From a virus: a stretch of 64,000 bases of DNA. The first letter of the stretch is position 1. Each line of letters starts with the position of its first letter. The notes beneath the pieces were generated by a model. The model ran no database searches and was not told where the DNA came from. It saw only the letters and a list, made by a program, of their open reading frames with translations. Made by a program: the position numbers and the translations under genes. Positions 24,071 through 37,244 of this stretch are shown here, piece by piece. Location of the stretch: positions 1 through 64,000 of the IMG/VR virus record IMGVR_UViG_3300008954_000025, one strand, 5' to 3'.

Positions 24071-24304
24071 GTGCCGCACCCGTTCGTCCACGAACACGCG
24101 CCGACAATCAAGGACGTAGCGAAAATTCTCAACGTCAATGAAAGGACCGTCTATCGGCCGGTCCAACGGGGCGAGCTTCCGGCGTTCAAGGTGGCCGGTG
24201 CCTGGCGCTTGCTCGCCGGCGACGTCGACCGCTGGATCGACTCACAGAAGGCCGTCACGGCCGACGAGGCTGGTCGGATCACAAGCAAGGCGACCAATGG
24301 CTGA
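24071..24304 (+). CDS. Excisionase-type (HTH_17/MerR-like) DNA-binding protein, probably a chimeric foreign fragment
   Basis: TIKDVAKILNVNERTVYR...GELPAFKVAGAWR...DVDRWI. Confidence 0.75.
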   Translation: MPHPFVHEHAPTIKDVAKILNVNERTVYRPVQRGELPAFKVAGAWRLLAGDVDRWIDSQKAVTADEAGRITSKATNG

Positions 24305-24344
24305 CATCATGCCGGCGCATCAACGGTCCGCGCTCATGAAGCGA
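24297..24344 (+). pseudogene. vsr: First ~16 codons of a Vsr-like endonuclease
   Basis: MADIMPAHQRSALMKR resembles the Vsr N-terminus (MAD....QRS..M.R), then breaks off. Confidence 0.5.
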
Positions 24345-24345
24345 G

Positions 24346-24615
24346 GCCGCCCAGCTCGTCCACGCCGCCGGTGAGTCCGCCCCCGGCGACCTCCCAGCAG
24401 GAACCCACGCCGTCGTTCTCGCAGCAGACGACGCGCAGCTGTCTGCGCTCCGGGACCGACTGGAGCGTCGAGGCGTACCTCATCGTGCCGTCATCGAGGG
24501 CGATGGTGCTCACGCAGGACAGCTACTTGCGGTTGGTCTAGCGCCCGCGCCCAAGCGCGCCGTGCAGCGTCACGTGAGCAGCCTGCCGCTATTGTGGAGG
24601 CGCCAGACGACCTAA
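24346..24615 (+). pseudogene. Peptidyl-tRNA hydrolase Pth2-like gene lacking its 5' end (not in ORF track)
   Basis: AAQLVHAAGES...THAVVLA...L..L...L...GVPHRAVIE.D....GQLLAVGLAP.....V...SSLPLL; in-frame TGA at 24337 and no start codon. Confidence 0.75.
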
Positions 24616-24624
24616 CTAACTTCT

Positions 24625-24699
24625 GCGCGTGTAGCTCAGTTGGCAGAGCGCCCGGCCTAAGCAGTCGGGAGGTCCGAGGTTCGACCCCTCGCGCGCGCG
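24625..24699 (+). tRNA. Non-canonical tRNA: 6-bp anticodon stem, nominal anticodon AAG, short variable loop, no encoded CCA
   Basis: Acceptor GCGCGTG/CGCGCGC; D arm GCTC-AGTTGGCA-GAGC; CCCGGC-CTAAGCA-GTCGGG; AGGTC; T arm CGAGG-TTCGACC-CCTCG. Confidence 0.7.
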
Positions 24700-24724
24700 C
24701 TCGAGCCTTGTCGTCCGGACAGAA

Positions 24725-24940
24725 ATGTGGCAGCGTCCAGCTCGCGTGTCCGGACGGAAACCCAAGATCGGTCGTCCGCCGGGGTCCGAGTTCCCCGACC
24801 GCGTCGAGATTCGCGTGCGCGCCGGCGACAAGCGCGAGCTCGCGGCGCGCTACGAAGCCGAGAACGCTGAGCGGTCGCCGCGATACCGCTTCGCCTCCAT
24901 GGCGGCTTGGATGCGGCGGAAGCTCGGACTGCGGCCATGA
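24725..24940 (+). CDS. Small ribbon-helix-helix-like DNA-binding protein (start may be GTG 24746)
   Basis: GRPP...RVEIRV....K..L......SMAAWMR; ATGA-coupled to first glycosyltransferase. Confidence 0.55.
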   Translation: MWQRPARVSGRKPKIGRPPGSEFPDRVEIRVRAGDKRELAARYEAENAERSPRYRFASMAAWMRRKLGLRP

Positions 24941-26151
24941 CTCGTCGTCTGCTCCTGCACTGCGACTCGCTGTGCGCGAGCACCGGCTTCGCGGGCGTCG
25001 CGCGTACGATCATCGCCAACCTCGACGGCTGGGAGATCGACCAGGTCGGTATCAACCATCCCAACGCGCTCGATGAGCACGACCGCGTCCGCATCTACCC
25101 GACGCGCGGCCAGACCGACCACGGCGGGCAGCTCGCGTGCGACCTGTACCTGCAGCGCGACTACGACGTCATGCTCATCGTGCAGGACCTCCACGTCGGT
25201 GCGCAGTGGGCGCGCGGACTCCGGAGCGCGCAGGTGCAGCGCGCCCGCCAGGGTCGTAGGAAGACGCCCGTCGTCTTCTTGTTCCCCGTGGACGGGCCGA
25301 TGCTCGGCTTCACCGAGCTGGTCGACCTCGCCGACTGCGCCGTGAGCTGTACGCGATGGGGGCAGCGCGTAGTCGGTGCCCTGTCGACGTCCCGCGTGCA
25401 GGTCATCCCGCACGACGTCAGCAGCGACGCGTTCCACACGCTCCCCGAGGCGGAACGGGCGCGGCTGCACAGCAGCGTGTTCAACGTGGCGCCCGAGACA
25501 CTCACGCTGCTGTCGGTGGCGGTGAACACCATCCGCAAGGACTTGTTCCAGGTGCTCCAAGGCATCGCAGCGCTGAAGGCGCGCCGCGGTCCGGTCGCCA
25601 AGATCCACTTCCACACGCCCGGCGTGCATCAGGACATGAACCTCCGTCTCATGGCGTCGGCGCTGGACCTGGTGCAAGGCATCGACTACCAGATCGCGGA
25701 CCCGTCGCTGCTGGGCGCGCCGCGCGAGGTCATCAACGAGCTCTACAACGCCGCTGACGGGCTCGTGTTCGCGTCGCGGCGCGAGGGCTGGGGTCTGCCC
25801 ATGACGGAGGCGATGGCCGCAGGGACCGCGGTCGTCGCGCCCCGCTACGGGCCGTTCGAGGAGCTGCTGGCTCCGGACCGTGGGCTCCTGCACGAGCCTG
25901 CCGGCCAGATCTGGACTGACAAGGAGCACAGGGGCCCGTGCTGGTTGTCCGACCCGGAGGCCATCGCCGACCAGCTCGAACGCCTGCTGGACATGCGCGG
26001 GACGCCCGAGCATCAGCAGCTCCTCGAGCGCGCCCGCGCTCGTGTGCAGCGCTTCGCCCCAGAGATTGTGGCCGAGCGCTGGCGGAAGTTGCTGTACGAC
26101 GTCATGGACGGGCAGGAGCCGGCCCCGACGCCCGGCGAGGAGCTGTCATGA
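24937..26151 (+). CDS. Glycosyltransferase, GT-B fold (GT4-like)
   Basis: DS...TGF..V, N..RKD, LYNAAD....S..EGWGLP..EAMA.G. Confidence 0.92.
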   Translation: MTRRLLLHCDSLCASTGFAGVARTIIANLDGWEIDQVGINHPNALDEHDRVRIYPTRGQTDHGGQLACDLYLQRDYDVMLIVQDLHVGAQWARGLRSAQVQRARQGRRKTPVVFLFPVDGPMLGFTELVDLADCAVSCTRWGQRVVGALSTSRVQVIPHDVSSDAFHTLPEAERARLHSSVFNVAPETLTLLSVAVNTIRKDLFQVLQGIAALKARRGPVAKIHFHTPGVHQDMNLRLMASALDLVQGIDYQIADPSLLGAPREVINELYNAADGLVFASRREGWGLPMTEAMAAGTAVVAPRYGPFEELLAPDRGLLHEPAGQIWTDKEHRGPCWLSDPEAIADQLERLLDMRGTPEHQQLLERARARVQRFAPEIVAERWRKLLYDVMDGQEPAPTPGEELS

Positions 26152-27329
26152 CCGCGCTCTGGGCGCCCGTGCGCCGTGAGGCAGAAGGCCTTCCGCCCGT
26201 CCGCTTCTCGGCCGACTTCGCGTCGCCGACGGGCTACGCGAACGACGCGCGCATGCTGGCCTACGCGCTCATCCAGGCCGGCGTGGACGTGACGCTCGAC
26301 GCGATCCCGATGGACTGCGGGACTGCGCACTTCGGCCCCGTCGCCGAGGCGCTGCGCCCACACATCGACCGCGAGCTCGACGCGCCGATCCAGATCCTGG
26401 ACACCATCCCCAGCTTCTGGCCGCAGTACCGTCGCAAGGACGCGCAGCATGCAGTGGCGCGGCTCGCGTGGGAGACGGACACGACGCCGCCCGAGTGGGC
26501 TCAGCTCGCGCGGCGCTGCGCCATCGACGAGGTCTGGACGCCGAGCACGTTCAACCGAACCGTGCTGTCTGACGGCCTCCGAGCCCCCGGCTTCACGGTC
26601 CCGATGGCGCACGACCTGGACTTCATCGATCAGCACTCCGAGGGCCTGGATCTGCGGGAGCAGGGCGTCGCGAACGACGTCTTCGTGTTCCTGACCGTGG
26701 GGACCTGGATCAAGCGGAAGAACTTCGAGGGGCTGCTGGCGTCGTACTGCGCCGAGTTCGGGCCGGACGACGCCGTGTGTCTCGTGCTCAAGGTCAATAG
26801 CGGCCGAGTCGACGCCGCGGCGCGGGCGGCGATCGAGGCCGAGGTCGCAGACATCTTGATCAGCCTCGGCGCGGACCGCCGGCTGCCGCCGATCATCATC
26901 CTGCAGCAGCACCTGCCGACCGCCGAGATGATCGGCCTGTACCGGCGCGCGCAGTGCGGCGTGTTCCCGACGTTCGGCGAGGGTTGGGGGCTGCCCATCA
27001 GCGAGATGATGGCGTGCGGCACCTCATCGATCGTGACGGGATGGGGCGGCGTGCTCGAGTTCTGCGACGAGACGACGGCCTGCCTGCTGCCCTACCAGCC
27101 GACACCGGTACGCGGCATGCGGCCGATGCCGTGGTACGACGCGCGCCACAGCTGGGCCGAGCCGGATCTGTGCGCGCTGCGCGGGCACATGCGCTACGTG
27201 TTCGAGCACCGAGACGAGTGGCAGAAGACCGGCTGGGTCGCGAAGCGCCGCATCCAAGAGAACTACAACATGCGCGCCGTGGCGCTGCGGATGGTCGCGC
27301 GCCTGCGTGCGATCGCGGGGGGCCTGTAG
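26148..27329 (+). CDS. Glycosyltransferase, GT-B fold (GT4-like)
   Basis: TGYA..AR, WET, DEVWTPS.FN, RKN, P..GEGWGLP..E.MACG. Confidence 0.92.
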   Translation: MTALWAPVRREAEGLPPVRFSADFASPTGYANDARMLAYALIQAGVDVTLDAIPMDCGTAHFGPVAEALRPHIDRELDAPIQILDTIPSFWPQYRRKDAQHAVARLAWETDTTPPEWAQLARRCAIDEVWTPSTFNRTVLSDGLRAPGFTVPMAHDLDFIDQHSEGLDLREQGVANDVFVFLTVGTWIKRKNFEGLLASYCAEFGPDDAVCLVLKVNSGRVDAAARAAIEAEVADILISLGADRRLPPIIILQQHLPTAEMIGLYRRAQCGVFPTFGEGWGLPISEMMACGTSSIVTGWGGVLEFCDETTACLLPYQPTPVRGMRPMPWYDARHSWAEPDLCALRGHMRYVFEHRDEWQKTGWVAKRRIQENYNMRAVALRMVARLRAIAGGL

Positions 27330-28180
27330 TGCGCGTCGTGCTCGCCACCATCGCCTTGAACGAGGCGGAGTTCATCCCGCGGCAGCTCGCGCAGCACCTC
27401 GCTTGGCCGGGTCTCGTCGGCTGGGTCTGGGTCGAGGGCGCCGCCGAGCACTACGGCCGAAAGCACCCGGCGGCCGTGTCCCGCGACGGCCGCTCGGTCG
27501 ACGCCACGTCGCAGCTGCTGGCTGCGGCTGCGCAGCGCGACCCTCGCGTGCGGTACGTGGCGCACGGCTGGGCGCAGGGCGGTGAGCGGACGATGGGCGC
27601 CCAGAAGATCCAGCTCCGCAACGCCTACTGCACGGTCGCCGACGAGCTGGACGCAGACGTCCTGGTCGTCATCGACGCCGACGAGTTCTACACGCGAGAG
27701 GACCAAGAGCGGATCCTCGACCTCATGGCGATGCGCGGGGCGGACCACGACGCGTTCCTGTTCCGCCAGCGGCACCTGTGGCGGCCGCCGTCGCTGCTCG
27801 GCGACGAGGCGCGCTACGAGGTCACCGGGGGCTACTGGGCCGTACCGCACGTCCGCGTGTGGTGGTACGAGCGTGGCGCCCGGTACCAGAACCACAACCA
27901 CCTCGCGCTGCCGGGTCAGCGCTATAACCCGAAGCGTCTGTACCGTCCCGAGCCCGGCGACCCCGAGTGCGTGCACCTCGGCTTCGCCCGCGACCCGCGT
28001 CACCGACTCCGGACGAATGCCTACTACGTCGCCCGAGGCGAGGGCCGCGAGCGCGGCTTCAACCGTCAGCACTACGTCGACTGCCGCGAGGCGTGGGCGA
28101 CGTGGCTCCCGGACACCGCGCTGCCACAGGGCGCAAAGGTCGGCGCGTACGAAGCCGTGTTGCCGGAGGTGTTGCGATGA
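27329..28180 (+). CDS. Glycosyltransferase, GT-A fold (GT2-like)
   Basis: LNEAEFI, VEGA, S.DAT, IDADEFY (DxD), HLGFAR. Confidence 0.85.
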   Translation: MRVVLATIALNEAEFIPRQLAQHLAWPGLVGWVWVEGAAEHYGRKHPAAVSRDGRSVDATSQLLAAAAQRDPRVRYVAHGWAQGGERTMGAQKIQLRNAYCTVADELDADVLVVIDADEFYTREDQERILDLMAMRGADHDAFLFRQRHLWRPPSLLGDEARYEVTGGYWAVPHVRVWWYERGARYQNHNHLALPGQRYNPKRLYRPEPGDPECVHLGFARDPRHRLRTNAYYVARGEGRERGFNRQHYVDCREAWATWLPDTALPQGAKVGAYEAVLPEVLR

Positions 28181-28938
28181 CGCGGGAGGTCTGGCTGCGA
28201 TCCATCACCCGCGCCTTGACCTGGCGCGTGATCGCGTCGGTCACGACCGCGGTCATCGCCGTGGGCGTGTTGGTTGAGCGTGGCGCGGTGTCCCGCGCTG
28301 CGGTCCTCGGCGGCGCGCTGGCCGTCTTCGGCGCCGACTTCTTGGTCAAGCTGGCGCTGAAGATCGCGCATGAGCGTGTCTGGGCCGACGTGCGGTGGGG
28401 CCTCGAGCAGCGTCCAGGGTACATCGTGGCGCTGTTTGGCCTGCCATGCTCCGGCAAGACCACGATCGCGCGGAGTCTGGCGGATCTGCTCGACGAGCCA
28501 GGACGGACGGTCGTGCGACTGGACGGCGACACCCTCCGAGGCGAGGACGGGCTCTGCCGGGACCTGGACTTTTCGCAGGAGGGTCGGGCCGAGAATCTGC
28601 GGCGGACACGTTGTCTGGCTGCGGCGCTCGCCGACGCAGGCGCGGGCGTCGTCGTCGCGAACATCATGCCGTACGCAGCTGACCGCCAGTTGCTGCGCGA
28701 GGTGCACGCGCGCGTGCTCATGGTGCATGTGGACACGCCGGCCGATGTCTGCGAGGCGCGCGACGTCAAAGGCATGTGGAAGAAGGCGCGGACGGGTGAG
28801 CTCGCTGACTTCACCGGTGTCGACGCGCCCTTCGAGCCAGCGGCGGCGGGCGTAGTTACCGTCCGGTCGGTAGGTGCCACACCCGAAGCGTGCGCCGAAG
28901 AGATTCACGCAGTGCTCTGCGACCAGGAGTGGCTATGA
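28177..28938 (+). CDS. cysC: DUF2061 membrane domain fused to adenylyl-sulfate (APS) kinase
   Basis: RS..+ALTWR....T...HERVW..V.WG, then GLPCSGKTT, LDGD.LR, DL.FS...R.EN, CE.RDVKG, FTGVDAPFEP. Confidence 0.9.
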   Translation: MTREVWLRSITRALTWRVIASVTTAVIAVGVLVERGAVSRAAVLGGALAVFGADFLVKLALKIAHERVWADVRWGLEQRPGYIVALFGLPCSGKTTIARSLADLLDEPGRTVVRLDGDTLRGEDGLCRDLDFSQEGRAENLRRTRCLAAALADAGAGVVVANIMPYAADRQLLREVHARVLMVHVDTPADVCEARDVKGMWKKARTGELADFTGVDAPFEPAAAGVVTVRSVGATPEACAEEIHAVLCDQEWL

Positions 28939-29981
28939 CCGGTACGCGCATCGGCCTCGTCGGCTACTGCTGCCCGACAGGTCTCGGCTACGAGAACCGC
29001 CGCATGTGGAGCGGCCTGCCGGACGTGCGCTGGCTCGTGTGGCCGCACGAGCTGCTCGGCGTCGCTGACCTCGACACCTTGTCCGGCGACGGCGGCGAGC
29101 TGGACCTGTCGGCGGTCCAGACGGAGTCCAGCGTCGACGTCTGCGTCGATGCGTTCCTCGACGGCGTGGACGTGGTGGTCTGCGCCGAGCGGCCGTTCCC
29201 AGATGACTTGTTCAGCCGCGCACACGCCCGCGGCGTGAAGACCGTCCTGCTCATCAACCCGGAGTGGCGGGTCGGCGAGTCGTGGTCTGAGGCCGACGTG
29301 GCCGTCGCACGCACTGCCGTGTGCAAGCGCGTCGTGGAGCAGGTCACTGGGCGCCGCGACGTTCACCACATCCCCTGTCCGCTGGACATCGAGCAGCTGC
29401 CCTTCGCCCATACGCTCCGGGCGGACTGGGGCCTATACTCGCACGGCTGGGGCGGGGTGCACGACCGCAAGGGCTGGCCGACGATCCGCGCCTTGTTGAA
29501 CGTCTCGCCGACGGCACCAGTCATCGTGCGGTCTCAGCGCGTTCTCCTCGATTCACCAGTGCCGGTACACCCGGCGGTCGACTCGCCCGCAGATCTGTAC
29601 AGCCCGGACGGTGATGTTTCGGCTGACATCGCGATTCAACCGTCACGGTTCGAGGGTGTGGGCCTAGCCATCCTCGAAGCCATGGCGTGCGGCCTGCCGG
29701 TGCTCACGACTGACGCGCCGCCCATGAATGAGTACCTGCACGCAGCCTACGGTGACCTCGCGCACTACGCGCTGCTCGCTGTCGAACGCGTGGACCTCGT
29801 GCCCATGTGGGCGCCGTGGCCGTCGAACCTCGTGGAGCCGTCCGTCGTGGCGGAAGTTATGGCGAAGCTGCAGGCCGAACCGGACGTCGTCGCCGAGCTG
29901 TCGCTGCGCGGGCGCGCCTACGTCGTGAAGCATCACGGTGAAGCCGCGTGGGCCGCGCTACGGGAGGCCGTCATCGGATGA
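28935..29981 (+). CDS. Glycosyltransferase, GT-B fold (GT4-like)
   Basis: TGLG, DRKG, QPSRFEGVGL.ILEAMACGLPVLTTDAPPMNE. Confidence 0.9.
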   Translation: MTGTRIGLVGYCCPTGLGYENRRMWSGLPDVRWLVWPHELLGVADLDTLSGDGGELDLSAVQTESSVDVCVDAFLDGVDVVVCAERPFPDDLFSRAHARGVKTVLLINPEWRVGESWSEADVAVARTAVCKRVVEQVTGRRDVHHIPCPLDIEQLPFAHTLRADWGLYSHGWGGVHDRKGWPTIRALLNVSPTAPVIVRSQRVLLDSPVPVHPAVDSPADLYSPDGDVSADIAIQPSRFEGVGLAILEAMACGLPVLTTDAPPMNEYLHAAYGDLAHYALLAVERVDLVPMWAPWPSNLVEPSVVAEVMAKLQAEPDVVAELSLRGRAYVVKHHGEAAWAALREAVIG

Positions 29982-30985
29982 AGATTCACATCGTCACGCA
30001 CGAGGACATGGACGGCTTCCTGTGGGGCGTGCTCGAGGGCTGGCTCAACGGCTACACGCTCAGCCAGCACGAGGTCCGGATCAGTGGAGACCGTACCCTG
30101 CTCGGCGCCGCATCGCCCGACTTCTGGGAGACGCTGCCGACGACCGACGCGATCCTCTTCTGTGCCACGAGCGCCAAGTCGACCTGCGCGCCGCGCGCGC
30201 TCGAGCTGATCGCCAAGCACGATCTGTGGAAGCGCATCGTGCACTCTGACTACGTGCACAACACCAAGCTCAAGTACCCGAAGCTCGCGGAGCGTTGCGG
30301 GCGCCTCTTCGTCGGCAAGCGCTACAAGTACCTACGCTGCTGCGAGGGCTGGGACCACGCCGAGTGGCTGCCGCGTACCGGCATTCAGCGGCGAACGGGG
30401 CGGTACCTGCCACCGCTGCCGTGGCGACTGTGGAAGGACCTCCCCGCCGTCGGCGTCTACCACACGTTCAAGGCCGCACAGAAGCACCGGCTGCCGTGGC
30501 TGAAGGCCGCGCGCGAGGTGCTCCCGAACGGCGTGTATGGCGCTGTGGAGCCGCCAGCTCAGCAGCAGCCGCTGCTGCAGAAGGTCTACGGCACGCGCCA
30601 CAACAGTAACTACCTGGAGCTGGCGTCGCGTGCGCGCATTGGTCTGTACCTCATGGGCGGCACGGCGCTCGGCCACCAGTTCTGGGAGTACGCCGCGCTC
30701 GGCTGCGCCATCGTCGCACAGCATGCGAGCACGCACCCGCTGGCCGAAGAAGGCACGCAGGAGTGGGAGCACTTCGGCGAGGCCGGCGGCGTGTCACTCG
30801 TCGAGGGCGAGGACTTCGTCTACTTCAAGACGGAGGACGAGCTCCGGTCGCTGTTCGCCGAGCTGGACGCCGACCCGGAGCGCTGTGAGCAGATGGCGAA
30901 GCGGGTCACCGCGAAGACGACGCAGTTCTACAGCGGGTTCCGCGGCTGGTACGTGATGCAAGCTCTGAAGGAGGTCGCGCGGTGA
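29978..30985 (+). CDS. Probable glycosyltransferase (CgeB/Glyco_trans_1_2-like)
   Basis: C-terminal Y.......+I.L...G......FWE..A.G......F.EGEDFVYF...EL; cluster context. Confidence 0.65.
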   Translation: MKIHIVTHEDMDGFLWGVLEGWLNGYTLSQHEVRISGDRTLLGAASPDFWETLPTTDAILFCATSAKSTCAPRALELIAKHDLWKRIVHSDYVHNTKLKYPKLAERCGRLFVGKRYKYLRCCEGWDHAEWLPRTGIQRRTGRYLPPLPWRLWKDLPAVGVYHTFKAAQKHRLPWLKAAREVLPNGVYGAVEPPAQQQPLLQKVYGTRHNSNYLELASRARIGLYLMGGTALGHQFWEYAALGCAIVAQHASTHPLAEEGTQEWEHFGEAGGVSLVEGEDFVYFKTEDELRSLFAELDADPERCEQMAKRVTAKTTQFYSGFRGWYVMQALKEVAR

Positions 30986-31158
30986 CGCTTGAAGGTCGCA
31001 AGATCACCAGTTCCCCGCTCAGGTTGGACCGCGCGCGCTTGACCATGCAGTTGCAAGAAGCGCGGTCGCGTCTCGGCTTGCGCGACTTGCTTGGGCCGTG
31101 GGGCAGGCCAGCAGAACCGAAGCCTAACGTGCACCTCCTCATGCCCAAGAGACTGTGA
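30982..31158 (+). CDS. 58 aa hypothetical protein (not in ORF track)
   Basis: AAGGAGG RBS, GTGA overlap upstream and TGATG overlap downstream. Confidence 0.4.
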   Translation: MTLEGRKITSSPLRLDRARLTMQLQEARSRLGLRDLLGPWGRPAEPKPNVHLLMPKRL

Positions 31159-31730
31159 TGACGCCGCAACTCGACGACAACCCGCAACCGTGGCTGGCAG
31201 CTGAGGCTGTCGCGCACTTGGAGCGCGCGCTCACGTCGCGGTCGCACGTGCTCGAGTTCGGGGCCGGCAACTCCAGCGTTTGGTTAGCCGAGCGCTGCGG
31301 CCAGCTCGTCTCGGTGGAGAGTGCGCTTCCGTGGGCGGCGCTTCTCGTTCGAGCGCTCAAAGGCGCCGACCACGTCTCCGTCATTCACGTCCCGCCGGAC
31401 GAGACGCCCCACCCTCCGTTCCGCGGCGCTCGCGGGAAGTCGTACCGTGCATACGTCGAAGCTGGCGTGTCGGCCGTCGCAGACGAGCTCGGGGGCCGCC
31501 TGGACCTGCTCCTCGTGGACGGCCGCGCGCGTGTCGCGTGCATTCGAGCGTGCGCTCCGTTGGTGCGGCCCGGCGGACTGCTCGTGCTCGATAACGCCGA
31601 CCGGCCACGCTACGCGCAGGCGCCGCGTTTCCTGATCGACGGCGGCTGGGAGCACGAGGCCACTTACACGGCCGACTTCGGAGATCGGCCCCCACAGACG
31701 GCGTTCTGGCGCCGGAGCGCAGGCACATGA
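31158..31730 (+). CDS. Class I SAM-dependent methyltransferase
   Basis: VLEFGAGNSS, VSVE, DLLLVDGRAR..C, PGGLLVLDN. Confidence 0.88.
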   Translation: MTPQLDDNPQPWLAAEAVAHLERALTSRSHVLEFGAGNSSVWLAERCGQLVSVESALPWAALLVRALKGADHVSVIHVPPDETPHPPFRGARGKSYRAYVEAGVSAVADELGGRLDLLLVDGRARVACIRACAPLVRPGGLLVLDNADRPRYAQAPRFLIDGGWEHEATYTADFGDRPPQTAFWRRSAGT

Positions 31731-32287
31731 ACAAGAAACTTCAGGCAATCAAGGCCGCGATGGCGTACGTTCCCGGCTACGCCGAGATCGACGTGTTTGT
31801 GGAGACCGGCACGGCGTTCGCCACGACGGCGACAGCTGCGTGCGAGGTCTTCGCGGAGGTGCACTCCATCGACCTGTCAGAGAAGCTGCACCAGCGCGCG
31901 GTGGAGCAGTTCGGTGACCGCGAAGGCTTGACCTTCCACTTCGGCGATAGCGCTGAGGTACTGCCGCAGGTGCTCGCGAACATCGCCCGGCCGGCGGTGG
32001 TCCTCCTGGACGCGCACTACTGTCGAGGCTTTGCTGACGCTGCAGCCAGGCAGTCGTTCCCGCTGTGGTCCGAGCTGGACACGCTACTGGCCCGACCGTA
32101 CGCCGACCTCGTGCTGGTGGACGACATCCACACCTTCGGCCGCGAGCGGCCGGACATCAGGGCAACGGACGGTCCGGAGTGGGAAGCCGTAACGCCCCGC
32201 ACCCTCGCCGCTTACGTCAACGAGCGGCTGGTGACGCACGCGCCGTTCCGCGATCAGTACGCGCTCTTCATGAAGGCGGCGACGTGA
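31727..32287 (+). CDS. Class I SAM-dependent methyltransferase-like protein
   Basis: FVETGT, V.SIDL, GDS..VL, LDAH, VDD. Confidence 0.8.
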   Translation: MNKKLQAIKAAMAYVPGYAEIDVFVETGTAFATTATAACEVFAEVHSIDLSEKLHQRAVEQFGDREGLTFHFGDSAEVLPQVLANIARPAVVLLDAHYCRGFADAAARQSFPLWSELDTLLARPYADLVLVDDIHTFGRERPDIRATDGPEWEAVTPRTLAAYVNERLVTHAPFRDQYALFMKAAT

Positions 32288-32295
32288 CGGGCGGA

Positions 32296-33264
32296 TCAGT
32301 TGCAGCCGTCGCAGATGGAGAGCTGCCGGCGTCCGCCACGCTCGCGGGTGGTTTGGTACAGGTCGCTGTTGACGATCTCCAGCAGGCTCCCAACCTCGAC
32401 CACGTTGCCGAGCTCCAGTTCGTAGTTCATGTCGTGGCAGCAGATTGTCACGTTCCCGTGGGGACTGATCGACGGGCGCCGTGCGTGCCGGCAGCCACCG
32501 CGGTTGCTGACGAGGCGCGTCTTACCGTCTATCTGCTTAGTGGTCACGCGAGCGCGCCAGGTGCGGTTGGTGGGCAGCGCGGTCAGCGCCTCCTCGTGCT
32601 GCTCCTCGGTCATCGCGCCGATCTTGTACAAGCCCATCTGTTTGGGCTGCCACTGCGGCAAGCCGTAGCTCGTGATCTGCTTCTGCAGCGCAGCCAGCTC
32701 GTGCTCGTTCCACGCCGTGACGATCGACGCGCCGGTGGTGTAGAGGCCGGGTGTGTCGCTGCGCCTCTGTTCCCCTCGCCGCTGCACCATAGCGCCCAGT
32801 GTCTGCAGGTTCTGCTTCTGCTGACTGATGTTGATCCGGCCTGCGATCTTGAGCGCCGTCTCCTTTTCGAGCGAGTCGACTTCGTAGACGATGCGGAGCT
32901 GCTTGCCGTGCGACTTGAACACGTCGCACATGGCGTCGATGCGCGCCCAGTCGACGGAGACCGCAAGTTTACTTGCGATTTCTGTCGTCATCCCACTGTC
33001 GGCGACGTGCTCCAGCAACTCGTAGATGTCGGGGTGAGCGAAGGACTCGCCGGCTTGATAGACGATCGCACGCGAGAAGCCCTCAGCCTTCATGATGTCG
33101 ATGATCTGCTTGAACATCGGCGTGGGCATGACCGCGTTGGTTCCTGTCTGCCAGCGCTGGTGGTGGCAGTAAACGCAGCGGTGGGGGCACACAGAGCAGA
33201 CGTCGACGAGGCTAGTTTTGGGCCGCCAGGGGTATTGCGCGAGGTCCGCTGCAGAGGTGGTCAT
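32296..33264 (-). CDS. Radical SAM protein with SPASM/twitch domain
   Basis: CPHRCVYC, GES, C-terminal C.......G.V..CC.D......GNV......C.GC; start ATG 33264. Confidence 0.88.
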   Translation of the reverse strand: MTTSAADLAQYPWRPKTSLVDVCSVCPHRCVYCHHQRWQTGTNAVMPTPMFKQIIDIMKAEGFSRAIVYQAGESFAHPDIYELLEHVADSGMTTEIASKLAVSVDWARIDAMCDVFKSHGKQLRIVYEVDSLEKETALKIAGRINISQQKQNLQTLGAMVQRRGEQRRSDTPGLYTTGASIVTAWNEHELAALQKQITSYGLPQWQPKQMGLYKIGAMTEEQHEEALTALPTNRTWRARVTTKQIDGKTRLVSNRGGCRHARRPSISPHGNVTICCHDMNYELELGNVVEVGSLLEIVNSDLYQTTRERGGRRQLSICDGCN

Positions 33265-33271
33265 CCTGGCC

Positions 33272-33282
33272 AGCCTAGCACA
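33272..33282 (-). promoter_or_regulatory. Extended -10 promoter, leaderless radical SAM transcript
   Basis: TGTGC-TAGGCT ending 7 nt before ATG; near-identical to the terL element. Confidence 0.55.
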
Positions 33283-33299
33283 CGGCTGCGAGGGGCGGA

Positions 33300-33845
33300 G
33301 TGATCCGCTACGCCGAAAAGGTCGGGCGCGCTGTGTCCCTGGCGCGGTGCGTGCCGGAGTTGTTCGCGGAGGGGCAGCGCTCGGTCCTGTACGTTGGGGC
33401 GCGTGCGTCACGGACCGAGTTCGCCGAAGACCTCGCTGCAGCCGGCGCCACGATCGACGTGCTCGAAGCGTGGGCGCAGAACGTCGCCGACTTGCGGGAG
33501 GCCGCGCCGTCTTGGCTGCGGCACGTGTTCCATCACGACGTCCGCGACGTGGATCTGCTACCCGCGCTGCACTACGACGTGGTCTTCTGGTGGCACGGTC
33601 CCGAGCACGTCACGCGGCTCGAGGCGCAGCGCACCGCGGTCAAGCTCCAGCGCATCGCGCCGCTCGTCGTGCTCGGCTGTCCGTGGGGCGACTATCCGCA
33701 GGGCGCGCTCGGCGGCAACCCGTACGAGGTCCACCAGTGGGCCCCCGAACCGGAGGAGTTCGAGGCGCTCGGCTTCGACGCCGAGGTGCTCCCACCGAGG
33801 GGCCGCGGCGGCAACATCCTGTCGTGGTGGCGCAAGAGAGGTTGA
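33300..33845 (+). CDS. Class I SAM-dependent methyltransferase-like protein
   Basis: SVLYVGA, DVLE, DVR, YDVVFWWHGPEH, NPYEVH...W. Confidence 0.75.
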   Translation: MIRYAEKVGRAVSLARCVPELFAEGQRSVLYVGARASRTEFAEDLAAAGATIDVLEAWAQNVADLREAAPSWLRHVFHHDVRDVDLLPALHYDVVFWWHGPEHVTRLEAQRTAVKLQRIAPLVVLGCPWGDYPQGALGGNPYEVHQWAPEPEEFEALGFDAEVLPPRGRGGNILSWWRKRG

Positions 33846-33846
33846 C

Positions 33847-34485
33847 GTGACGAGCTACGACCCACTGACCTACTGGACCGAGCGCACGCGCAAGTTGCTG
33901 GACACCGACAACCCGGCGCTGGTGCATCGCGACCGGAGTCTCGAGGTCGACGTCAAGACGGCTGACTGGCTGCGTGCGGTCCTGCTGTCTGAAGAGCTGC
34001 GCCTTGGCCATAAGCCGTCGATCCTCGAGGTCGGCTGCGGGTTCGGGCGCTGGTCGCAGATCCTGAAGTCGCGGTACGCCCGCTACGTCGGCGCCGACAT
34101 CGTAGCTGACCGCGTGCAGGTCGCGCTGGACGACTACGCGGCGGACAACGTCGACTTCGTCGTCGTGGCGGCCGACGGTCGGTGGGATGTGCAGGCGCCA
34201 GCGGACGTTGTCCCGGTCGACGTCGTCATGTCGATCACCGTGCTGCAGCACGTCGACTTCGACACCACCGCCCGCCTGCTGCAGACCATGGACCGGCACC
34301 TCAAGCCTGGCGGCGCCGCGCTGCTCGCCGAGTGGCGCATGTACGACGAGCCACAACAGATGCTGGACGCGCGAACGCACGAGGCGCACATGTTGCCGAA
34401 GTCGATACCCGAGCTGCGTGCAGTCGTCCCGGACCTCAACTGGACCGGGCGCCAAGGCCGCTTCATCTTGAGGAAGCCAGAATGA
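33847..34485 (+). CDS. Class I SAM-dependent methyltransferase
   Basis: YW.ER, ILEVGCGFGRW, YVGADI, DVVM..TVLQH, LKPGG. Confidence 0.9.
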   Translation: MTSYDPLTYWTERTRKLLDTDNPALVHRDRSLEVDVKTADWLRAVLLSEELRLGHKPSILEVGCGFGRWSQILKSRYARYVGADIVADRVQVALDDYAADNVDFVVVAADGRWDVQAPADVVPVDVVMSITVLQHVDFDTTARLLQTMDRHLKPGGAALLAEWRMYDEPQQMLDARTHEAHMLPKSIPELRAVVPDLNWTGRQGRFILRKPE

Positions 34486-35489
34486 AGATCGTCAGCGTTT
34501 GCCGAACCTATCCGACGCAGCGTCCGGGCGGCATGCCGCACGTCACGCAGGACCGTGCAAGAGCGCTTGCGCGAGCTGGTCACGACGTCACGGTCGTGAC
34601 CACGAGCCTGAAGGACGACGGCCGAACCGAGCTGGACGATGACGGCGTGCGTGTCGTGCATACGGCCTGCCCGTCGCAGGCGTACACGCCGCTGTTCGCC
34701 GAGCGGTGCCGCTGGGAGTGCGAGGACCTCGCGCCGGACGTGATCCACCTCGACAGCTTCGACCGCGCGCGGCCGTGGTGGGTCGGCCTGTCGGCGCGCA
34801 CCGTGGTGACGATGCACGGCTTCGGCGTGGGCGCGATGCTCACGTCGTGGAACAAGTTCCTGGCCGGAGGCCGCACGGCGCCGATGCCGGACTGGTCCGC
34901 GCTGCGCGACGAGGCGGACGTGCTGCAGACGTTCGATCGGGTCTTGGCCATCTCGACCCACGAGCAGTGGATGCTGTCGGACGTGTACAACCTGCAGGAC
35001 CGCGTGCGCTTGGTGCCTAACCCGATCGCGCCGTACTTCTTCGACATGCCGTGGCCCGTACCGGCCGTGCCGGCGGCCCCATTCGTGTGCATCGGGAACC
35101 CCGGCACCAGCGGCAATCGCGACTTCGGCCGGGTCCGCGACGCGGCGCGAGCAGCTGGCGTACCGCTCGAGGTCATCACTGGCGTGGAGCGCTCCCGCAT
35201 CCCGCAGATGCTCGACGAGAGTCAGGGGCTCGTGCTGCCGACGCTGTGGTCGCAGGGCTACGACCTCGCTGTGGCCGAAGCTCTAGCGCGTCGGCGCCCC
35301 GTCATCGTCTCGGGTACCGGCTCGTACTGGCACCTGCGCGCTCCGTACGTTCGCGTCATCCCGCGCGCGGCCGCGTTAGACGTACTTGTTGAGGCGCTCC
35401 AAGCAGCACTACCGGAAGTGCCCGCCGGCGCCGCGGACGACCACCGCCCCAACCGGCACGTCGACGCATGGGAGGCCGCTCTTGCCTGA
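34482..35489 (+). CDS. Glycosyltransferase, GT-B fold (GT4-like)
   Basis: MKI.......P..PGG, LARAGHDVTVVT, PDVIH, V.TMHG, VPNPI, VLPT...G......EALA...PVI. Confidence 0.88.
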   Translation: MKIVSVCRTYPTQRPGGMPHVTQDRARALARAGHDVTVVTTSLKDDGRTELDDDGVRVVHTACPSQAYTPLFAERCRWECEDLAPDVIHLDSFDRARPWWVGLSARTVVTMHGFGVGAMLTSWNKFLAGGRTAPMPDWSALRDEADVLQTFDRVLAISTHEQWMLSDVYNLQDRVRLVPNPIAPYFFDMPWPVPAVPAAPFVCIGNPGTSGNRDFGRVRDAARAAGVPLEVITGVERSRIPQMLDESQGLVLPTLWSQGYDLAVAEALARRRPVIVSGTGSYWHLRAPYVRVIPRAAALDVLVEALQAALPEVPAGAADDHRPNRHVDAWEAALA

Positions 35490-36798
35490 TCGCGCACTCG
35501 CTGTCTTCGGCCACAGCCGCCCCGAACTGCTGCGTCGCGTGCTCGCGCAGGTGCCCCAGCTCGACGGCGCGAACGAGTTCGACCTGTGGTGCTTCATCGA
35601 CGGCCCAAGGGAGCACGACGCGGAGCTGGTGCAGCAGTGCGAGGCTGTAGCTCGCGCCGTCGTCCCTCGGGAGCGGTTGGTCGTGCGCGGCAAGAATCTC
35701 GGTGTCGGCCTGCACCAGACCGGGGCGCGTCGATTCTTGTTCGAGGAGCAGGGCTACGACGCCGTGCTGCAAGTCGAAGACGACGTCGAGCTCTCACCCT
35801 GCGCGCTCACGGCGCTCGGCGCGCTGCACCATGCGAAGCCGGGTCTGGTAGGCCACAGCTTCATGGACACGCGCAGCTCGCGTGAGAAGCTGGGCGCGCT
35901 TCGGGACGTGCGTCCTGGAGCGGCGCTGCTGTGTGCGCTGATCACCGGCGAGGTGTACGACGCGACGGCCGGGACGATGGACGCGTACGCCGAGCGCTTC
36001 CTCATGCCGCTGCACCAGCGCGGGCGCCCGTACAAGTGGCGGGACGACGCAGCCATCCGCAAGTTCCTGTCGGACCTCGTCGGCCACGACGTGACGTCGC
36101 TGTACCCGACGAGCCAGGACGCCGTGCTGCTCGCCGCGTGCGTCGCGGCCGACGTGCCCGTCTGGTCGCCGACGGTGAACCACATTCGGCACGTCGTCGA
36201 CACTGGCGAGCACGTGCTGCCCAGCTCGGACGTGGGCATTGCCTGTCGACGGACCAAGCTCGACCTCTTCCCTGGTGCGGTGGCGGTCACTGCGCTGTCG
36301 GACCCGCAGCTGGACGACACGTCCCCTCCGCTGGGCAGCCAGCGCAGCTACCTGCACGTGAGCCTGCTGCAGCTGTACACCGAGGCCCGGCCGGAGACCG
36401 CGATTCAGTACGGCATCACGCCGGCGACGCCTGTGCTATTGGGCCTGACCGGGGGCGAGCTCCACACGGTCGAGGTCGAGCGCGCGTGGCAGGAGCGCGT
36501 GGCGTTCGACCTCCCGGCGCGGAGCTTCGGGCGCTGGTGCCCGCATGGAGGGCGGTCGTTCGCAGGCGTGGCGCGGCTGGACGATGCACTGGCCCGGGTC
36601 CCTGGGCTGCCGAGGGAAGCCGACCTGGTGCTCGTGAACGCGCCGGCCGGCAGTGCGTGCTTGCGAGCCGCGGCGCGGCGCGTCGCCCCCGGCGGCCTGC
36701 TACTGACTGACGATCCGCGTGCCCGGCCCCCTAGCGGTCCGTGGCACCGCATAGACATCGACGGCGGAGCCGCGTTCCGTCGCACGGAGGACTCATGA
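35482..36798 (+). CDS. GT-A fold glycosyltransferase with C-terminal degenerate methyltransferase-like domain
   Basis: GGAGG-N6-TTG start; RPELLRRVL, FIDGP, NLGVG, VEDD; C-terminal LHTVE...W, DLVLVN, VAPGGLLLTDD. Confidence 0.8.
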   Translation: MPDRALAVFGHSRPELLRRVLAQVPQLDGANEFDLWCFIDGPREHDAELVQQCEAVARAVVPRERLVVRGKNLGVGLHQTGARRFLFEEQGYDAVLQVEDDVELSPCALTALGALHHAKPGLVGHSFMDTRSSREKLGALRDVRPGAALLCALITGEVYDATAGTMDAYAERFLMPLHQRGRPYKWRDDAAIRKFLSDLVGHDVTSLYPTSQDAVLLAACVAADVPVWSPTVNHIRHVVDTGEHVLPSSDVGIACRRTKLDLFPGAVAVTALSDPQLDDTSPPLGSQRSYLHVSLLQLYTEARPETAIQYGITPATPVLLGLTGGELHTVEVERAWQERVAFDLPARSFGRWCPHGGRSFAGVARLDDALARVPGLPREADLVLVNAPAGSACLRAAARRVAPGGLLLTDDPRARPPSGPWHRIDIDGGAAFRRTEDS

Positions 36799-37244
36799 GC
36801 AACGTAGAAGACACCGGTGGCCGCGAGCCTGCCGAGGGGCTCCGGAAGCAGCGGCGTGCCGAGGCGGCCGCGCGCCGGCGCGCCGCGGCCAAGGATCGCC
36901 CACCCGCGGAGCCGTGTTGGGGCCAGGTGGTTGCGGTGGAGCCGGCCGACATCGACCGCTTCGCCGCCCTGCACCAGAAGTCGCAGGCCGAGCGGCTCCG
37001 GTTCGCGGACATGGCAGCCAGCGCGATGCAGCAGCTGGCCCCGCAGCTCCTGGCAATGGGCGAGGCGAACAAGGAGGTCCGCGGCGTGTTGACGCACCTC
37101 GCCGAGAAGTATCGCATCACCCCCGAGGAGCGGGGCGCGGACGCTGTGTGGGAGCTGCTGCCGGCTGAAGGCGGCTTCGTCCGCCGCGATGAGGTCCCCG
37201 AAGTCCCGGTGCCGCCCGCGCCGGACACCCCGGACGACCCTTAG
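36795..37244 (+). CDS. Hypothetical helical protein
   Basis: GGAGG RBS, ATGA overlap. Confidence 0.65.
   Translation: MSNVEDTGGREPAEGLRKQRRAEAAARRRAAAKDRPPAEPCWGQVVAVEPADIDRFAALHQKSQAERLRFADMAASAMQQLAPQLLAMGEANKEVRGVLTHLAEKYRITPEERGADAVWELLPAEGGFVRRDEVPEVPVPPAPDTPDDP

What the first reader, a model, noticed from the sequence alone, without database searches (positions are those of the whole stretch)
24725..36798. 12-kb glycan-building and tailoring cluster embedded between head and neck genes
Seen: seven glycosyltransferases (four GT4-like, one CgeB-like, two GT-A), four SAM methyltransferases plus a fused degenerate one, an APS kinase and a radical SAM/SPASM enzyme, mostly translationally coupled and headed by an RHH-like gene. 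No nucleotide-sugar synthesis, flippase, polymerase or base-hydroxymethylase genes are visible, and the GTs lack TM segments. Known: some actinobacteriophages glycosylate capsid and tail proteins using a few GT genes located among structural genes. Inference: a much more elaborate system building a methylated, possibly sulfated, oligosaccharide on the virion. The Thr/Ser-rich insertion domains of capsid, sheath and fibres are candidate acceptors. Possible roles are shielding from proteases or host sensors, or adhesion.
Basis: partly seen in the sequence, partly recalled or inferred. Interest (0 to 1): 0.8.

Follow-up and report, generated by a model that had tools for sequence, protein, structure and literature searches.

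The report
Swappable sugar-building island in a phage
An uncultured marine phage carries, between its head and neck genes, fourteen enzyme genes for building and decorating a sugar chain: an old three-enzyme core plus add-on cassettes that close relatives swap, which most likely coats the virus particle, although the target is untested.

Summary
The cluster is real. Between the capsid/fibre genes and the neck gene of an SPO1-like, 68% GC marine phage lie 14 tightly coupled genes. Six are Pfam-supported glycosyltransferases and a seventh (g14) is GT-A by transitive homology. Two are clear methyltransferases (a third is weak, a fourth unsupported). There is also an APS kinase with a hydrophobic N-terminus, and a radical SAM enzyme that lies on the minus strand. 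All are under purifying selection.

New here:
- The pair g02-g03 plus the g14 GT-A domain is an old core. It sits at the same place in 48-49% GC relatives whose capsid proteins form one clade with this phage.
- Accessory genes are exchanged as whole-gene cassettes. One relative, 99% identical from g11 onward to another relative, replaces g07-g10 with six other genes, including a Sulfotransfer_2 enzyme.
- This phage has the APS kinase but no detectable sulfotransferase in its 88 kb. Sulfation is therefore supported for the relative, not here.

The acceptor is unproven. Virion proteins are the best guess (about 0.5) and host envelope glycans the main rival.

Similar islands are in print (pelagimyophage HRC islands, the Corndog cassette). 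This scan already holds 228 notes that contain the same search words, on other DNA.

The parts
24746..24940 (+). g01, small basic protein (64-71 aa; ATG 24725 or GTG 24746) whose stop overlaps the g02 start.
   Evidence: No Pfam, PHROG or PDB match. 82% identical in sister L004, dN/dS 0.10.
24937..26151 (+). g02, GT4-type glycosyltransferase; part of the conserved core.
   Evidence: Glycos_transf_1 49.4 bits. phrog_2170 E 1e-22. 42-45% identical homologues at the same place in L048 and L063.
26148..27329 (+). g03, GT4-type glycosyltransferase; part of the conserved core.
   Evidence: Glyco_trans_1_4 32.2 bits. phrog_2170 E 1e-18. 38-41% identical homologues in L048 and L063.
27329..28180 (+). 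g04, GT2-like (GT-A) glycosyltransferase; marginal match.
   Evidence: Glycos_transf_2 24.0 bits against a cut-off of 23.3. 82-86% identical in L004 and L014.
28177..28938 (+). g05, adenylyl-sulfate (APS) kinase with a hydrophobic DUF2061-like N-terminus. It is a whole-gene indel, absent from sister L004/L005.
   Evidence: APS_kinase 142.5 bits; TIGR00455 141.8 bits against 138.7. Hydrophobic N-terminus. The sister alignment jumps from 28182 to 28944. 70% identical in L014, dN/dS 0.19.
28935..29981 (+). g06, GT4-type glycosyltransferase.
   Evidence: Glycos_transf_1 42.9 bits.
29978..30985 (+). g07, Glyco_trans_1_2 (CgeB-type) glycosyltransferase; first gene of the swappable cassette g07-g10.
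   Evidence: 27.9 bits against a cut-off of 25. No tblastn match in 50,697 phage records. Absent from L014.
30986..31157 (+). Non-coding remnant of the 3' end of a GT61-like gene that is intact in the sister (L004:11011-12192).
   Evidence: Window 31006-31104 aligns to L004:12040-12138. The sister ORF has a Glyco_transf_61 match, E 1.4e-5, 25.8 bits, just below the cut-off of 27.
31158..31730 (+). g08, Methyltransf_24-type SAM methyltransferase.
   Evidence: 27.3 bits against a cut-off of 26.3. 30% identical homologue in L063.
31727..32287 (+). g09, possible methyltransferase (weak).
   Evidence: Methyltransf_24 E 0.013, 16.8 bits, below cut-off. hhalign to the g08 family gives probability 1%.
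32296..33264 (-). g10, radical SAM enzyme with a shortened SPASM/twitch-like domain, on the minus strand (the ORF is open to 33411).
   Evidence: Radical_SAM 38.1 bits and SPASM 38.1 bits. Conserved C26, C30, C33 plus C258, C275, C276, C318, C321. Only 3 protein clusters among 5.8 billion. dN/dS 0.11.
First gene of the conserved right arm.
   Evidence: No family match. hhalign to the g08 family gives probability 0.2%. 83-86% identical in L004 and L014.
33847..34485 (+). g12, class I SAM methyltransferase.
   Evidence: Methyltransf_25 55.9 bits, Methyltransf_11 52.2 bits.
34482..35489 (+). g13, GT4 glycosyltransferase.
   Evidence: Glyco_transf_4 67.4 bits.
35482..36798 (+). g14, GT-A glycosyltransferase domain (about residues 1-280, part of the core) fused to a partial methyltransferase-like C-terminus.
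   Evidence: No Pfam match itself. Among 40 remote homologues scanned, 13 match Glyco_tranf_2_3 and 10 Glycos_transf_2. C-terminus against the g08 family: hhalign probability 92.6%. Stand-alone N-domain homologues at the same place in L048 and L063.
36795..37244 (+). g15, unknown 149-aa protein coupled to g14, directly before the neck gene.
   Evidence: No family match. 71% identical in L002 and L014.

Best explanation
This is a phage-encoded glycan build-and-decorate module that is expressed with the late (virion) genes. A core of two GT4 enzymes (g02, g03) and one GT-A enzyme (g14 N-domain) was acquired once by the ancestor of this phage clade. I infer that it starts and extends a sugar chain from host nucleotide sugars, on a cytoplasmic acceptor. 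Accessory enzymes (g04, g06, g07, g13; methyltransferases g08, g12 and perhaps g09; the radical SAM enzyme g10) extend and tailor the chain. These accessory genes are exchanged between closely related phages as whole-gene cassettes, so each strain makes a different glycan. The most likely acceptor is the phage's own particle (capsid surface domain, or the fibre-like proteins encoded just upstream), modified in the cytoplasm during assembly. The APS kinase supplies PAPS for sulfation. That step is complete in relative L014, which also has a sulfotransferase. In this phage either the partner lies in the unsequenced ~45% of the genome or the step is orphaned.

Shown: gene families, position, coupling, purifying selection, clade-wide core, cassette exchange.
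Inferred: the order of the reactions, late expression, the acceptor and any role.
For: Families.

Position: same strand and overlapping stop/start codons with the structural genes. No promoter-like site was found in 21000-38500, and the three terminator-like sites were fewer than the 6.1 expected from shuffles.

Selection: dN/dS is 0.10-0.32 for every gene, against 0.22-0.24 for the neck gene.

Old core at a fixed site: of 53 capsid-related viral loci with at least 5 kb downstream, 4 carry cluster homologues. Two are sisters. L048 and L063 (GC 0.48-0.49) carry g02-like, g03-like and g14N-like genes in the same order, and in their records the neck gene follows directly. The four module-bearing capsid proteins in the tree (window, sister L039, L048, L063) form one clade (support 100/99).

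Cassette exchange: the sister lacks g05 exactly at its gene borders and has an extra GT61-like gene, of which the window keeps a remnant. L014 replaces g07-g10 by six genes: DUF2334/deacetylase-like, DUF6625, FkbM methyltransferase, Methyltransf_24, one unknown, and Sulfotransfer_2 (E 4e-16). From the g11 start onward L014 is 98.9-99.96% identical to sister contigs, yet only about 80% identical on the left arm. All 5 relatives' contigs that reach the island end inside it.

Soluble enzymes without nucleotide-sugar synthesis genes.

Precedent: Corndog has an O-methyltransferase, two glycosyltransferases and a GlcNAc-transferase inside its structural operon; they are not in virions and were proposed to modify the capsid (PMC4351075, passages). 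Mycobacteriophage capsid and tail-tube glycans are reported in the passages that cite Freeman 2023.
Against: No acceptor is identified. Capsid and tube have no S/T-rich tails, and the S/T enrichment of sheath and fibre-like proteins is modest. No Pfam domain was found in any of the eight proteins between capsid and cluster, nor in the capsid or sheath.

The capsid loop insertion that co-occurs with the module (5 of 5 against 0 of 74) is a single evolutionary event on one clade, so it is not independent evidence.

g02, g07, g08 and g14 have no homologue in mycobacteriophages among 50,697 phage records.

The APS kinase carries a membrane-type N-terminus, which would suit a membrane-bound acceptor better.

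The authors of the closest published islands (HRC) favour host O-chain modification (PMC7029224).

No sulfotransferase was found in this phage's 88 kb. Late expression is inferred from position only, and no RNA run was listed.
Confidence: 0.5

Rival explanations
1. The island remodels the host's envelope glycans during infection. The soluble glycosyltransferases would act on lipid-linked O-antigen, capsule or cell-wall precursors made and exported by host machinery. The cell surface changes, which blocks superinfection by competitors or stops progeny from sticking to debris. Cassette swapping would track host glycotype diversity.
For: This is the published reading for the closest island type: a hypervariable HRC between vrlC and the neck gene gp14 in pelagi- and cyanomyophages, with fibres, many glycosyltransferases and radical SAM cassettes (PMC7029224, passages). 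The best NCBIfam matches of the GT4 enzymes, all far below cut-off, are to polysaccharide and glycolipid enzymes. The APS kinase has a membrane-type N-terminus. Glycosyltransferases of lipid-linked pathways also usually lack transmembrane segments (my own knowledge).
Against: There is no initiating phosphoglycosyl transferase, flippase, polymerase or ligase. This rests on the gene-by-gene Pfam results; I ran no dedicated family search for them. The module has stayed in the virion module, coupled to it, across hosts of 48% and 68% GC, whereas an envelope-specific pathway would be expected to turn over with the host. A seven-transferase chain built late in a lytic cycle has little time to reach the surface (inference).
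Confidence: 0.27
2. The APS kinase is not part of the glycan pathway in this phage. It is either a stand-alone sulfur-metabolism auxiliary gene that landed in the island, or a leftover of a sulfation cassette whose sulfotransferase was swapped out with the g07-g10 exchange.
For: It is a precise whole-gene indel, absent from the sister. No sulfotransferase of five Pfam families, no homologue of L014's two candidates and no ATP sulfurylase was found in 88 kb. It is more diverged than its neighbours (70% against 80-88%; dS 1.1 against 0.5-0.8). APS kinases occur in 8 unrelated low-GC viral contigs; 7 of them hold no match to the other cluster genes, and the eighth has only a distant g02-like match (21% identical) about 7 kb away.
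Against: dN/dS is 0.19 and the kinase motifs are intact. It is translationally coupled on both sides. In L014 the same gene, in the same slot, sits with a Sulfotransfer_2 gene. The record is only about 55% complete.
Confidence: 0.35
3. The enzymes hypermodify the phage DNA with a glycan, as in glucosyl-hydroxymethylcytosine and related systems.
For: Phage glycosyltransferases that put diverse glycans on DNA are reported (Pyle et al. 2024, seen only as a citation in PMC12619734). The SPO1-type relatives of this phage use a modified base (my own knowledge).
Against: No thymidylate-synthase-type hydroxymethylase in 88 kb. The phage carries an intact-looking C5-cytosine DNA methylase (206.7 bits), which presupposes ordinary cytosine. 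The genes sit in the structural operon, not with the replication genes. Seven transferases plus methyltransferases exceed any DNA glycan I know of (my own knowledge).
Confidence: 0.05
4. The module makes a free cytoplasmic or secreted product (a methylated polysaccharide, glycolipid or glycosylated small molecule) that helps infection, rather than decorating a protein.
For: Soluble GT4 enzymes plus SAM methyltransferases also build intracellular polymethylated polysaccharides in actinobacteria (my own knowledge). A radical SAM enzyme is present.
Against: There is no scaffold-forming, carrier or export gene. Position and coupling tie it to virion genes. Strain-level cassette swapping is more typical of exposed surface structures (inference).
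Confidence: 0.08

Closest known systems
Mycobacteriophage virion-glycosylation cassettes (cluster O Corndog gp35-38; Che8 and Myrna of Freeman et al. 2023)
   Same: Glycosyltransferase and O-methyltransferase genes sit inside the virion structural operon and encode soluble enzymes that are not themselves virion components (PMC4351075, passages). Glycans on capsid and tail-tube subunits are reported in citing passages.
   Different: Those cassettes have four genes against fourteen here. The four genes I tested have no detectable sequence homology to them. This island adds an APS kinase, a radical SAM enzyme and a CgeB-type transferase, and shows cassette exchange. This phage has no C-terminal S/T-rich acceptor tails. 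Freeman 2023 itself is not held, so its details are known to me only at second hand.
Host recognition cluster (HRC) islands of pelagimyophages and cyanomyophages (Zaragoza-Solas et al. 2020, PMC7029224)
   Same: [quoted passage not shown]
   Different: Those phages are T4-like (vrlC, gp14). This one has SPO1/Herelleviridae-type head, neck and sheath genes. The HRC is 34-45 kb and was read as host O-chain modification. The passages I read mention no conserved enzyme core, APS kinase or sulfotransferase.
Bacterial O-antigen and capsule loci
   Same: A conserved frame with exchangeable glycosyltransferase and tailoring cassettes, swapped at gene borders between otherwise near-identical genomes (my own knowledge for the bacterial side; for this phage).
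   Different: No initiating transferase, flippase, polymerase or nucleotide-sugar genes. The locus is on a lytic-type phage, inside its virion operon.
Virus-encoded glycosylation of giant viruses (chlorovirus capsid glycans with methylated sugars; A064R-type fusions of transferase and methyltransferase) and glycosylation of the Bacillus spore surface by CgeB/Sps enzymes
   Same: Soluble, particle-encoded or particle-dedicated enzymes decorate a protein shell assembled inside the cytoplasm. The glycosyltransferase-methyltransferase fusion resembles g14, and the CgeB-type domain occurs in g07. These comparisons are recalled, not tested.
   Different: No sequence relation was tested. Hosts and particle types differ.

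Membership tests
Phage virion-glycosylation cassette (Corndog/Che8 type) | Glycosyltransferase and methyltransferase genes embedded in the virion structural operon | tested here: met
   The cluster lies between the major head protein (15108-16559) and the neck gene (37273-38352), on the same strand and coupled.
Phage virion-glycosylation cassette (Corndog/Che8 type) | Sequence homology to the known cassette enzymes | tested here: not met
   tblastn of 4 of the 14 genes against 50,697 phage records: g07, g08 and g14 gave no match. g02 matched 32 records, none a mycobacteriophage; the best was Tetrasphaera phage TJE1, 26.7% identical.
Phage virion-glycosylation cassette (Corndog/Che8 type) | Glycans demonstrated on capsid or tail-tube subunits | not testable with these tools
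   Needs mass spectrometry of particles. No isolate exists.
Phage virion-glycosylation cassette (Corndog/Che8 type) | Recognisable acceptor tails on capsid or tube (C-terminal, as described in the passage citing Freeman 2023) | tested here: not met
   Capsid: best 40-residue window has 25% S+T. Tube: 20%. No C-terminal extension in the capsid alignment.
HRC hypervariable island (Zaragoza-Solas 2020) | Island in the structural region directly upstream of the neck gene | tested here: met
HRC hypervariable island (Zaragoza-Solas 2020) | Gene content differs between close relatives | tested here: met
   APS kinase indel, GT61 gene loss, and replacement of g07-g10 beside flanks that are 99% identical between two of the relatives, L014 and L004/L002/L003.
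HRC hypervariable island (Zaragoza-Solas 2020) | T4-like backbone (vrlC to gp14) with tail-fibre genes inside the island | tested here: not met
   The head, neck and sheath PHROG families and the tblastn hits are of SPO1/Herelleviridae type. Fibre-like genes (17361-21404) lie upstream, with only weak C-terminal PHROG matches.
Adenylyl-sulfate kinase (CysC; PF01583, TIGR00455) | Family model above its curated cut-off, with an intact P-loop | tested here: met
   142.5 bits against 21.1; TIGR00455 141.8 bits against 138.7. A GxxxxGK[ST] P-loop is visible in the translation.
Glycan sulfation pathway | A PAPS-dependent sulfotransferase encoded with the kinase | tested here: not met
   PF00685, PF03567, PF13469, PF09037 and PF17784 gave no match at E<=1 in 88 kb. 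PF09037 rang in no control genome, so that one test says nothing. Met in relative L014 (Sulfotransfer_2, 60.2 bits). The record is about 55% complete.
Radical SAM / SPASM | CxxxCxxC motif with Radical_SAM and SPASM models above cut-off | tested here: met
   38.1 bits against 29.5 and 38.1 bits against 21.5. C26, C30 and C33 are conserved.
Radical SAM / SPASM | Full seven-cysteine SPASM motif for two auxiliary clusters (motif recalled) | tested here: not met
   Only five conserved C-terminal Cys (258, 275, 276, 318, 321), and the protein ends right after CxxC. This is twitch-like, with one auxiliary cluster.
GT4 glycosyltransferases | Pfam GT4-type models above cut-off | tested here: met
   g02, g03, g06 and g13.
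Ribbon-helix-helix regulators (for g01) | A match to any RHH family or structure | tested here: not met
   No Pfam match at E<=5, no PHROG, and no PDB match better than E 0.24.

The most novel reading that the evidence does not exclude
Phage particles have heritable, exchangeable 'glycotypes'. In this reading a clade-wide three-enzyme core primes a specific surface loop of the capsid protein: the AGTG[DE]H insertion, found only in module-bearing capsids. Strain-specific cassettes, swapped by recombination at gene borders, then finish the chain with different sugars, methyl groups or sulfate. Near-identical phages would thus wear different coats. This would be the phage-side mirror of bacterial O-antigen diversity, driven by whatever recognises particles in the sea (host surface lectins or defences, grazers, or adhesion to particles).
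Probability: 0.2. Interest if true: 0.8.

Novelty: new variant of a known kind. Interest (0 to 1): 0.5.

Why it matters
Glycosylation of phage particles has been shown experimentally only for a few mycobacteriophages, as far as the texts I could read say. The large glycan islands of marine phages have been read as host-surface modification, without a test.

This locus gives a clean comparative handle. A small core has been kept at one site across a deep phage clade and across a 20-point shift in GC. Alternative tailoring cassettes, one of them with a complete kinase-plus-sulfotransferase pair, sit in flanks that are 99% identical between two of the relatives. That makes the question 'what do these islands decorate, and why do they vary?' testable with three or four genes and one capsid protein.

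If the particle is the target, surface chemistry becomes a variable trait of marine phages, with consequences for adsorption, decay and recognition.

Tried and rejected
The protein atlas did not hold g14 or its relative P0123. I used profile searches instead.

PDB sequence searches. These were uninformative for g14, g13 (69), g07 (71), g01 (102) and L014's two candidate sulfotransferases (83, 84). g10 matched only PqqE, E 4e-5.

The viral scan gave 8 unrelated low-GC contigs; none held the cluster, and only L007 had a distant g02-like match. The metagenome scan gave L014, which was decisive.

Context of the g14-type GT-A family in cellular genomes. Alignments A2 and A6 were too diverse for the scanner. 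The single proteins P0140 and P0144 found nothing in viral contigs or in genome contigs. I therefore cannot say whether the family is phage-only.

Other relatives. A scan with A1 returned only the sisters. Megablast of the cluster against phage records found no match.

Acceptor search. The S/T composition scan and Pfam on ten head-to-neck, capsid and sheath proteins gave nothing usable. 'FN3-like' for the capsid insertion domain is my reading of the alignment; no model supports it.

Promoter and terminator scan. It found no promoter-like site, and three terminator-like sites against 6.1 expected from shuffles.

Reads. Only Logan contigs at low depth, from 4 runs of one study, one of which may be the source. 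They carry the window's own version; X1 record 5 spans 27665-30999, that is g04 into g07. The listed joints have sides of 25 letters or fewer, and I treat them as spurious. No RNA holder was listed.

Literature. 'phage + adenylylsulfate kinase + glycosyltransferase + sulfotransferase' returned 0 papers. A search with sulfotransferase, glycosyltransferase, methyltransferase, phage genome and structural genes listed 15 of 42 papers; by the term counts in the listing, no phage paper among them contained the word sulfotransferase. Freeman 2023 is not held. Supplementary files were not opened.

Rejected idea. The co-occurrence of the capsid loop insertion with the module is not independent evidence, because the tree shows one clade and so one event.

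Full report
WHAT THE DNA IS. The window is the first 64 kb of an 87,892-bp linear IMG/VR virus record, estimated about 55% complete, with 62-72% GC in 2-kb windows. PHROG matches give an SPO1/Herelleviridae-type layout on the plus strand: large terminase 5962-7695, portal 9367-11181, protease 13338-14261, scaffold 14258-15061, major head protein 15108-16559, a run of small and fibre-like proteins up to 21404, then neck/connector 37273-38352, sheath 40844-43594 and tube 43605-44084. The neck protein's tblastn hits are 651 phage records, all below 60% identity; the best listed are Bacillus phages at 32-34%. Megablast of the cluster against 50,697 phage records found nothing.

THE GENES. In high-GC DNA most long ORFs are spurious, so I chose genes by third-position GC and coupling. 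Fourteen enzyme-type genes, plus the small g01, fill 24746-37244. Pfam above its own cut-offs gives:
- GT4-type glycosyltransferases g02, g03, g06 and g13
- the CgeB-type Glyco_trans_1_2 protein g07
- a marginal GT2, g04
- the APS kinase g05 (142.5 bits)
- methyltransferases g08 and g12
- a radical SAM/SPASM protein

The last one is on the minus strand (32296-33264). The plus-strand frame that the coupling pattern would suggest has GC3 of 40-70% and no family match.

g14 has no Pfam match and only three protein clusters among 5.8 billion. An exhaustive profile search found 767 proteins at E<=0.001, mostly of about 280-310 residues and covering g14's first 280 residues. I scanned 40 of the best 150 listed. 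Of those, 13 match Glyco_tranf_2_3, 10 Glycos_transf_2, 2 GNT-I and 1 MGAT2. The N-domain is therefore a GT-A glycosyltransferase. Its C-terminus aligns to the second half of the g08-type methyltransferase domain (hhalign 92.6%).

g09 is a weak methyltransferase candidate (E 0.013). g11, g15 and g01 have no support for any family.

Only the APS kinase has a hydrophobic N-terminus (weak DUF2061 match). The radical SAM protein keeps CxxxCxxC and five further conserved Cys, so it has a shortened, twitch-like auxiliary domain.

The 88-kb record has no match to Epimerase, NTP_transferase, ATP-sulfurylase or thymidylate synthase, nor to five sulfotransferase families. One of those five, PF09037, rang in no control genome either, so that test says nothing.

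RELATIVES, AND WHAT THEY ADD. Sister contigs, about 80% identical in DNA, carry the island at the same place. There are two exact differences. The APS kinase is missing at its gene borders (the alignment jumps from 28182 to 28944). A 393-aa GT61-like gene (E 1.4e-5, just under cut-off) sits between g07 and g08, where the window keeps only a 3' remnant.

A metagenome contig (L014) has g03, g04, the APS kinase (70% identical) and g06. It then carries six different genes in place of g07-g10: DUF2334/polysaccharide-deacetylase-like, DUF6625, an FkbM methyltransferase, Methyltransf_24/CmcI-like, an unknown 262-aa protein, and Sulfotransfer_2 (60.2 bits). After these come g11-g15 and the neck gene. 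From the start of g11 onward L014 is 98.9-99.96% identical to the sister contigs. Its left arm is only about 80% identical and the middle is unrelated. All exchanges fall at gene borders. All 5 relatives' contigs that reach the island end inside it, as expected when assemblers meet co-existing variants.

Every gene is under purifying selection (dN/dS 0.10-0.32; neck gene 0.22-0.24).

Logan contigs from four runs of one marine study carry the window's own arrangement. One of these runs may be the source.

DEPTH OF THE MODULE. A scan with the capsid protein gave 80 viral loci.
- In the 45 loci that hold both capsid and neck genes, the gap is 475-9175 bp and none has a homologue of any cluster gene.
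- Of the 53 loci with at least 5 kb downstream, 4 have homologues: the two sisters, plus L048 and L063.

L048 and L063 have 48-49% GC and capsids 52-53% identical to the window's. They carry g02-like, g03-like and stand-alone g14N-like genes in the same order, followed by different accessory genes (a g08-like methyltransferase; a reversed class I methyltransferase; a reversed amidohydrolase) and then the neck gene. In the capsid tree, the four module-bearing capsids included (window, sister L039, L048, L063) form one clade with support 100/99.

The module was therefore acquired once, has tracked its lineage through a large change in base composition, and has grown to fourteen genes in the high-GC branch. 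The same clade alone has a short insertion, AGTG[DE]H, in the capsid's surface insertion domain (5 of 5 against 0 of 74 aligned). Because this is one event on one branch, it is a lead and not evidence.

WHAT IT MOST LIKELY DOES. The anatomy is a set of soluble transferases using host nucleotide sugars, coupled to virion genes, with a fixed core and exchangeable tailoring enzymes. This fits a cytoplasmic build-and-decorate pathway on a protein acceptor, and the phage's own particle is the obvious candidate.

The precedent is the Corndog cassette: an O-methyltransferase, two glycosyltransferases and a GlcNAc-transferase between portal and protease. They are expressed but not packaged, and were proposed to modify the capsid (PMC4351075, passages). 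There are also the capsid and tail-tube glycans of mycobacteriophages, reported at second hand in PMC12619734 and PMC13313380 (passages). The primary paper is not held.

I put this reading at about 0.5. What is missing is an acceptor signature. Capsid and tube lack S/T-rich tails. The ten proteins tested (the eight between capsid and cluster, plus capsid and sheath) have no Pfam domain. The four genes tested have no homologue in mycobacteriophages.

RIVALS. The main rival, at about 0.27, is remodelling of host envelope glycans. That is the published interpretation of the positionally equivalent HRC islands of pelagi- and cyanomyophages (PMC7029224, passages). The membrane-type N-terminus of the APS kinase leans that way. 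DNA glycosylation is unlikely: there is no hydroxymethylase, an intact C5-cytosine methylase sits next door, and the module is the wrong one. A free glycan or glycolipid product cannot be excluded.

SULFATION. In L014 the kinase and a Sulfotransfer_2 enzyme sit in one cluster, so a sulfated product is well supported there. In this phage the cassette that holds the sulfotransferase is replaced by g07-g10, and no sulfotransferase is detectable in 88 kb. The kinase is either served by a gene in the missing part of the genome, or is a conserved orphan, or has another use.

COMPARISON AND NOVELTY. Glycan islands in phage structural modules are known. Cases in print are Corndog, the HRC islands and a small sugar-gene group in Tetrasphaera phage TJE1. 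This scan's own notebook holds 228 notes containing the same search words, in at least 210 genomes; the eight shown describe similar glycan clusters in uncultured phages. Those notes are unchecked AI notes, and one of them gave me the HRC lead.

Three things are particular here. The backbone is SPO1-like rather than T4-like or siphoviral. There is a demonstrable three-enzyme core with one origin. And cassette replacement is caught between contigs (L014 and the sister contigs) that are 99% identical on one side, including a kinase-plus-sulfotransferase version. My two literature searches that combined phage terms with sulfotransferase or APS kinase and glycosyltransferase found no description of such a sulfation arm. 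Supplements were not opened, and many journals are not held.

I class it as a new variant of a known kind, with interest 0.5.

Noticed in passing
window 16100-16200 (capsid protein, loop just before the motif ...HDVGAY...), with L039, L040, L048, L063: A 5-residue loop insertion, AGTG[DE]H, in the capsid's surface insertion domain. It occurs in all 5 capsids whose genomes carry the glycan module and in none of 74 other aligned relatives. The tree shows one clade, hence one event.
   Followed up: partly
L014:5793-6581: A 262-aa protein next to the Sulfotransfer_2 gene. By eye it has sulfotransferase-like PAPS-binding motifs, but no Pfam or PDB match.
   Followed up: partly
window 21417-24700 against L004:4377-5462: The sister phage has about 1.1 kb where the window has about 3.3 kb. 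That stretch holds the C5 methylase and tRNA/Pth2 region which earlier notes describe as patched-in foreign fragments.
   Followed up: no
window 11015-11134 (portal C-terminus, residues 550-589): A Ser/Thr/Gly/Pro-rich tail, 40% S+T in 40 residues. It is the only strongly S/T-rich stretch in a plausible gene of the record.
   Followed up: no
L048:13816-14688: In the 48% GC relative, a Laminin_G_3 (concanavalin-like lectin fold) protein, E 1e-15, lies between the capsid gene and the glycan module.
   Followed up: no
L035 (Tetrasphaera phage TJE1, record 5388-10731): A cultured actinophage holds the best cultured-phage match of g02 (26.7% identical). There it sits in a small group annotated as nucleotidyl transferase, guanylate kinase, nucleotide-sugar epimerase, methyltransferase and glycosyltransferase, upstream of the terminase genes.
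   Followed up: no
L006-L013: APS kinase homologues (32-55% identical) occur in 8 unrelated low-GC (0.25-0.40) viral contigs. Their neighbours were not annotated.
   Followed up: no
window 33264-33300: Only 35 nt separate the divergent starts of the minus-strand radical SAM gene and g11. No promoter-like site was found by the sigma-70 scan.
   Followed up: no
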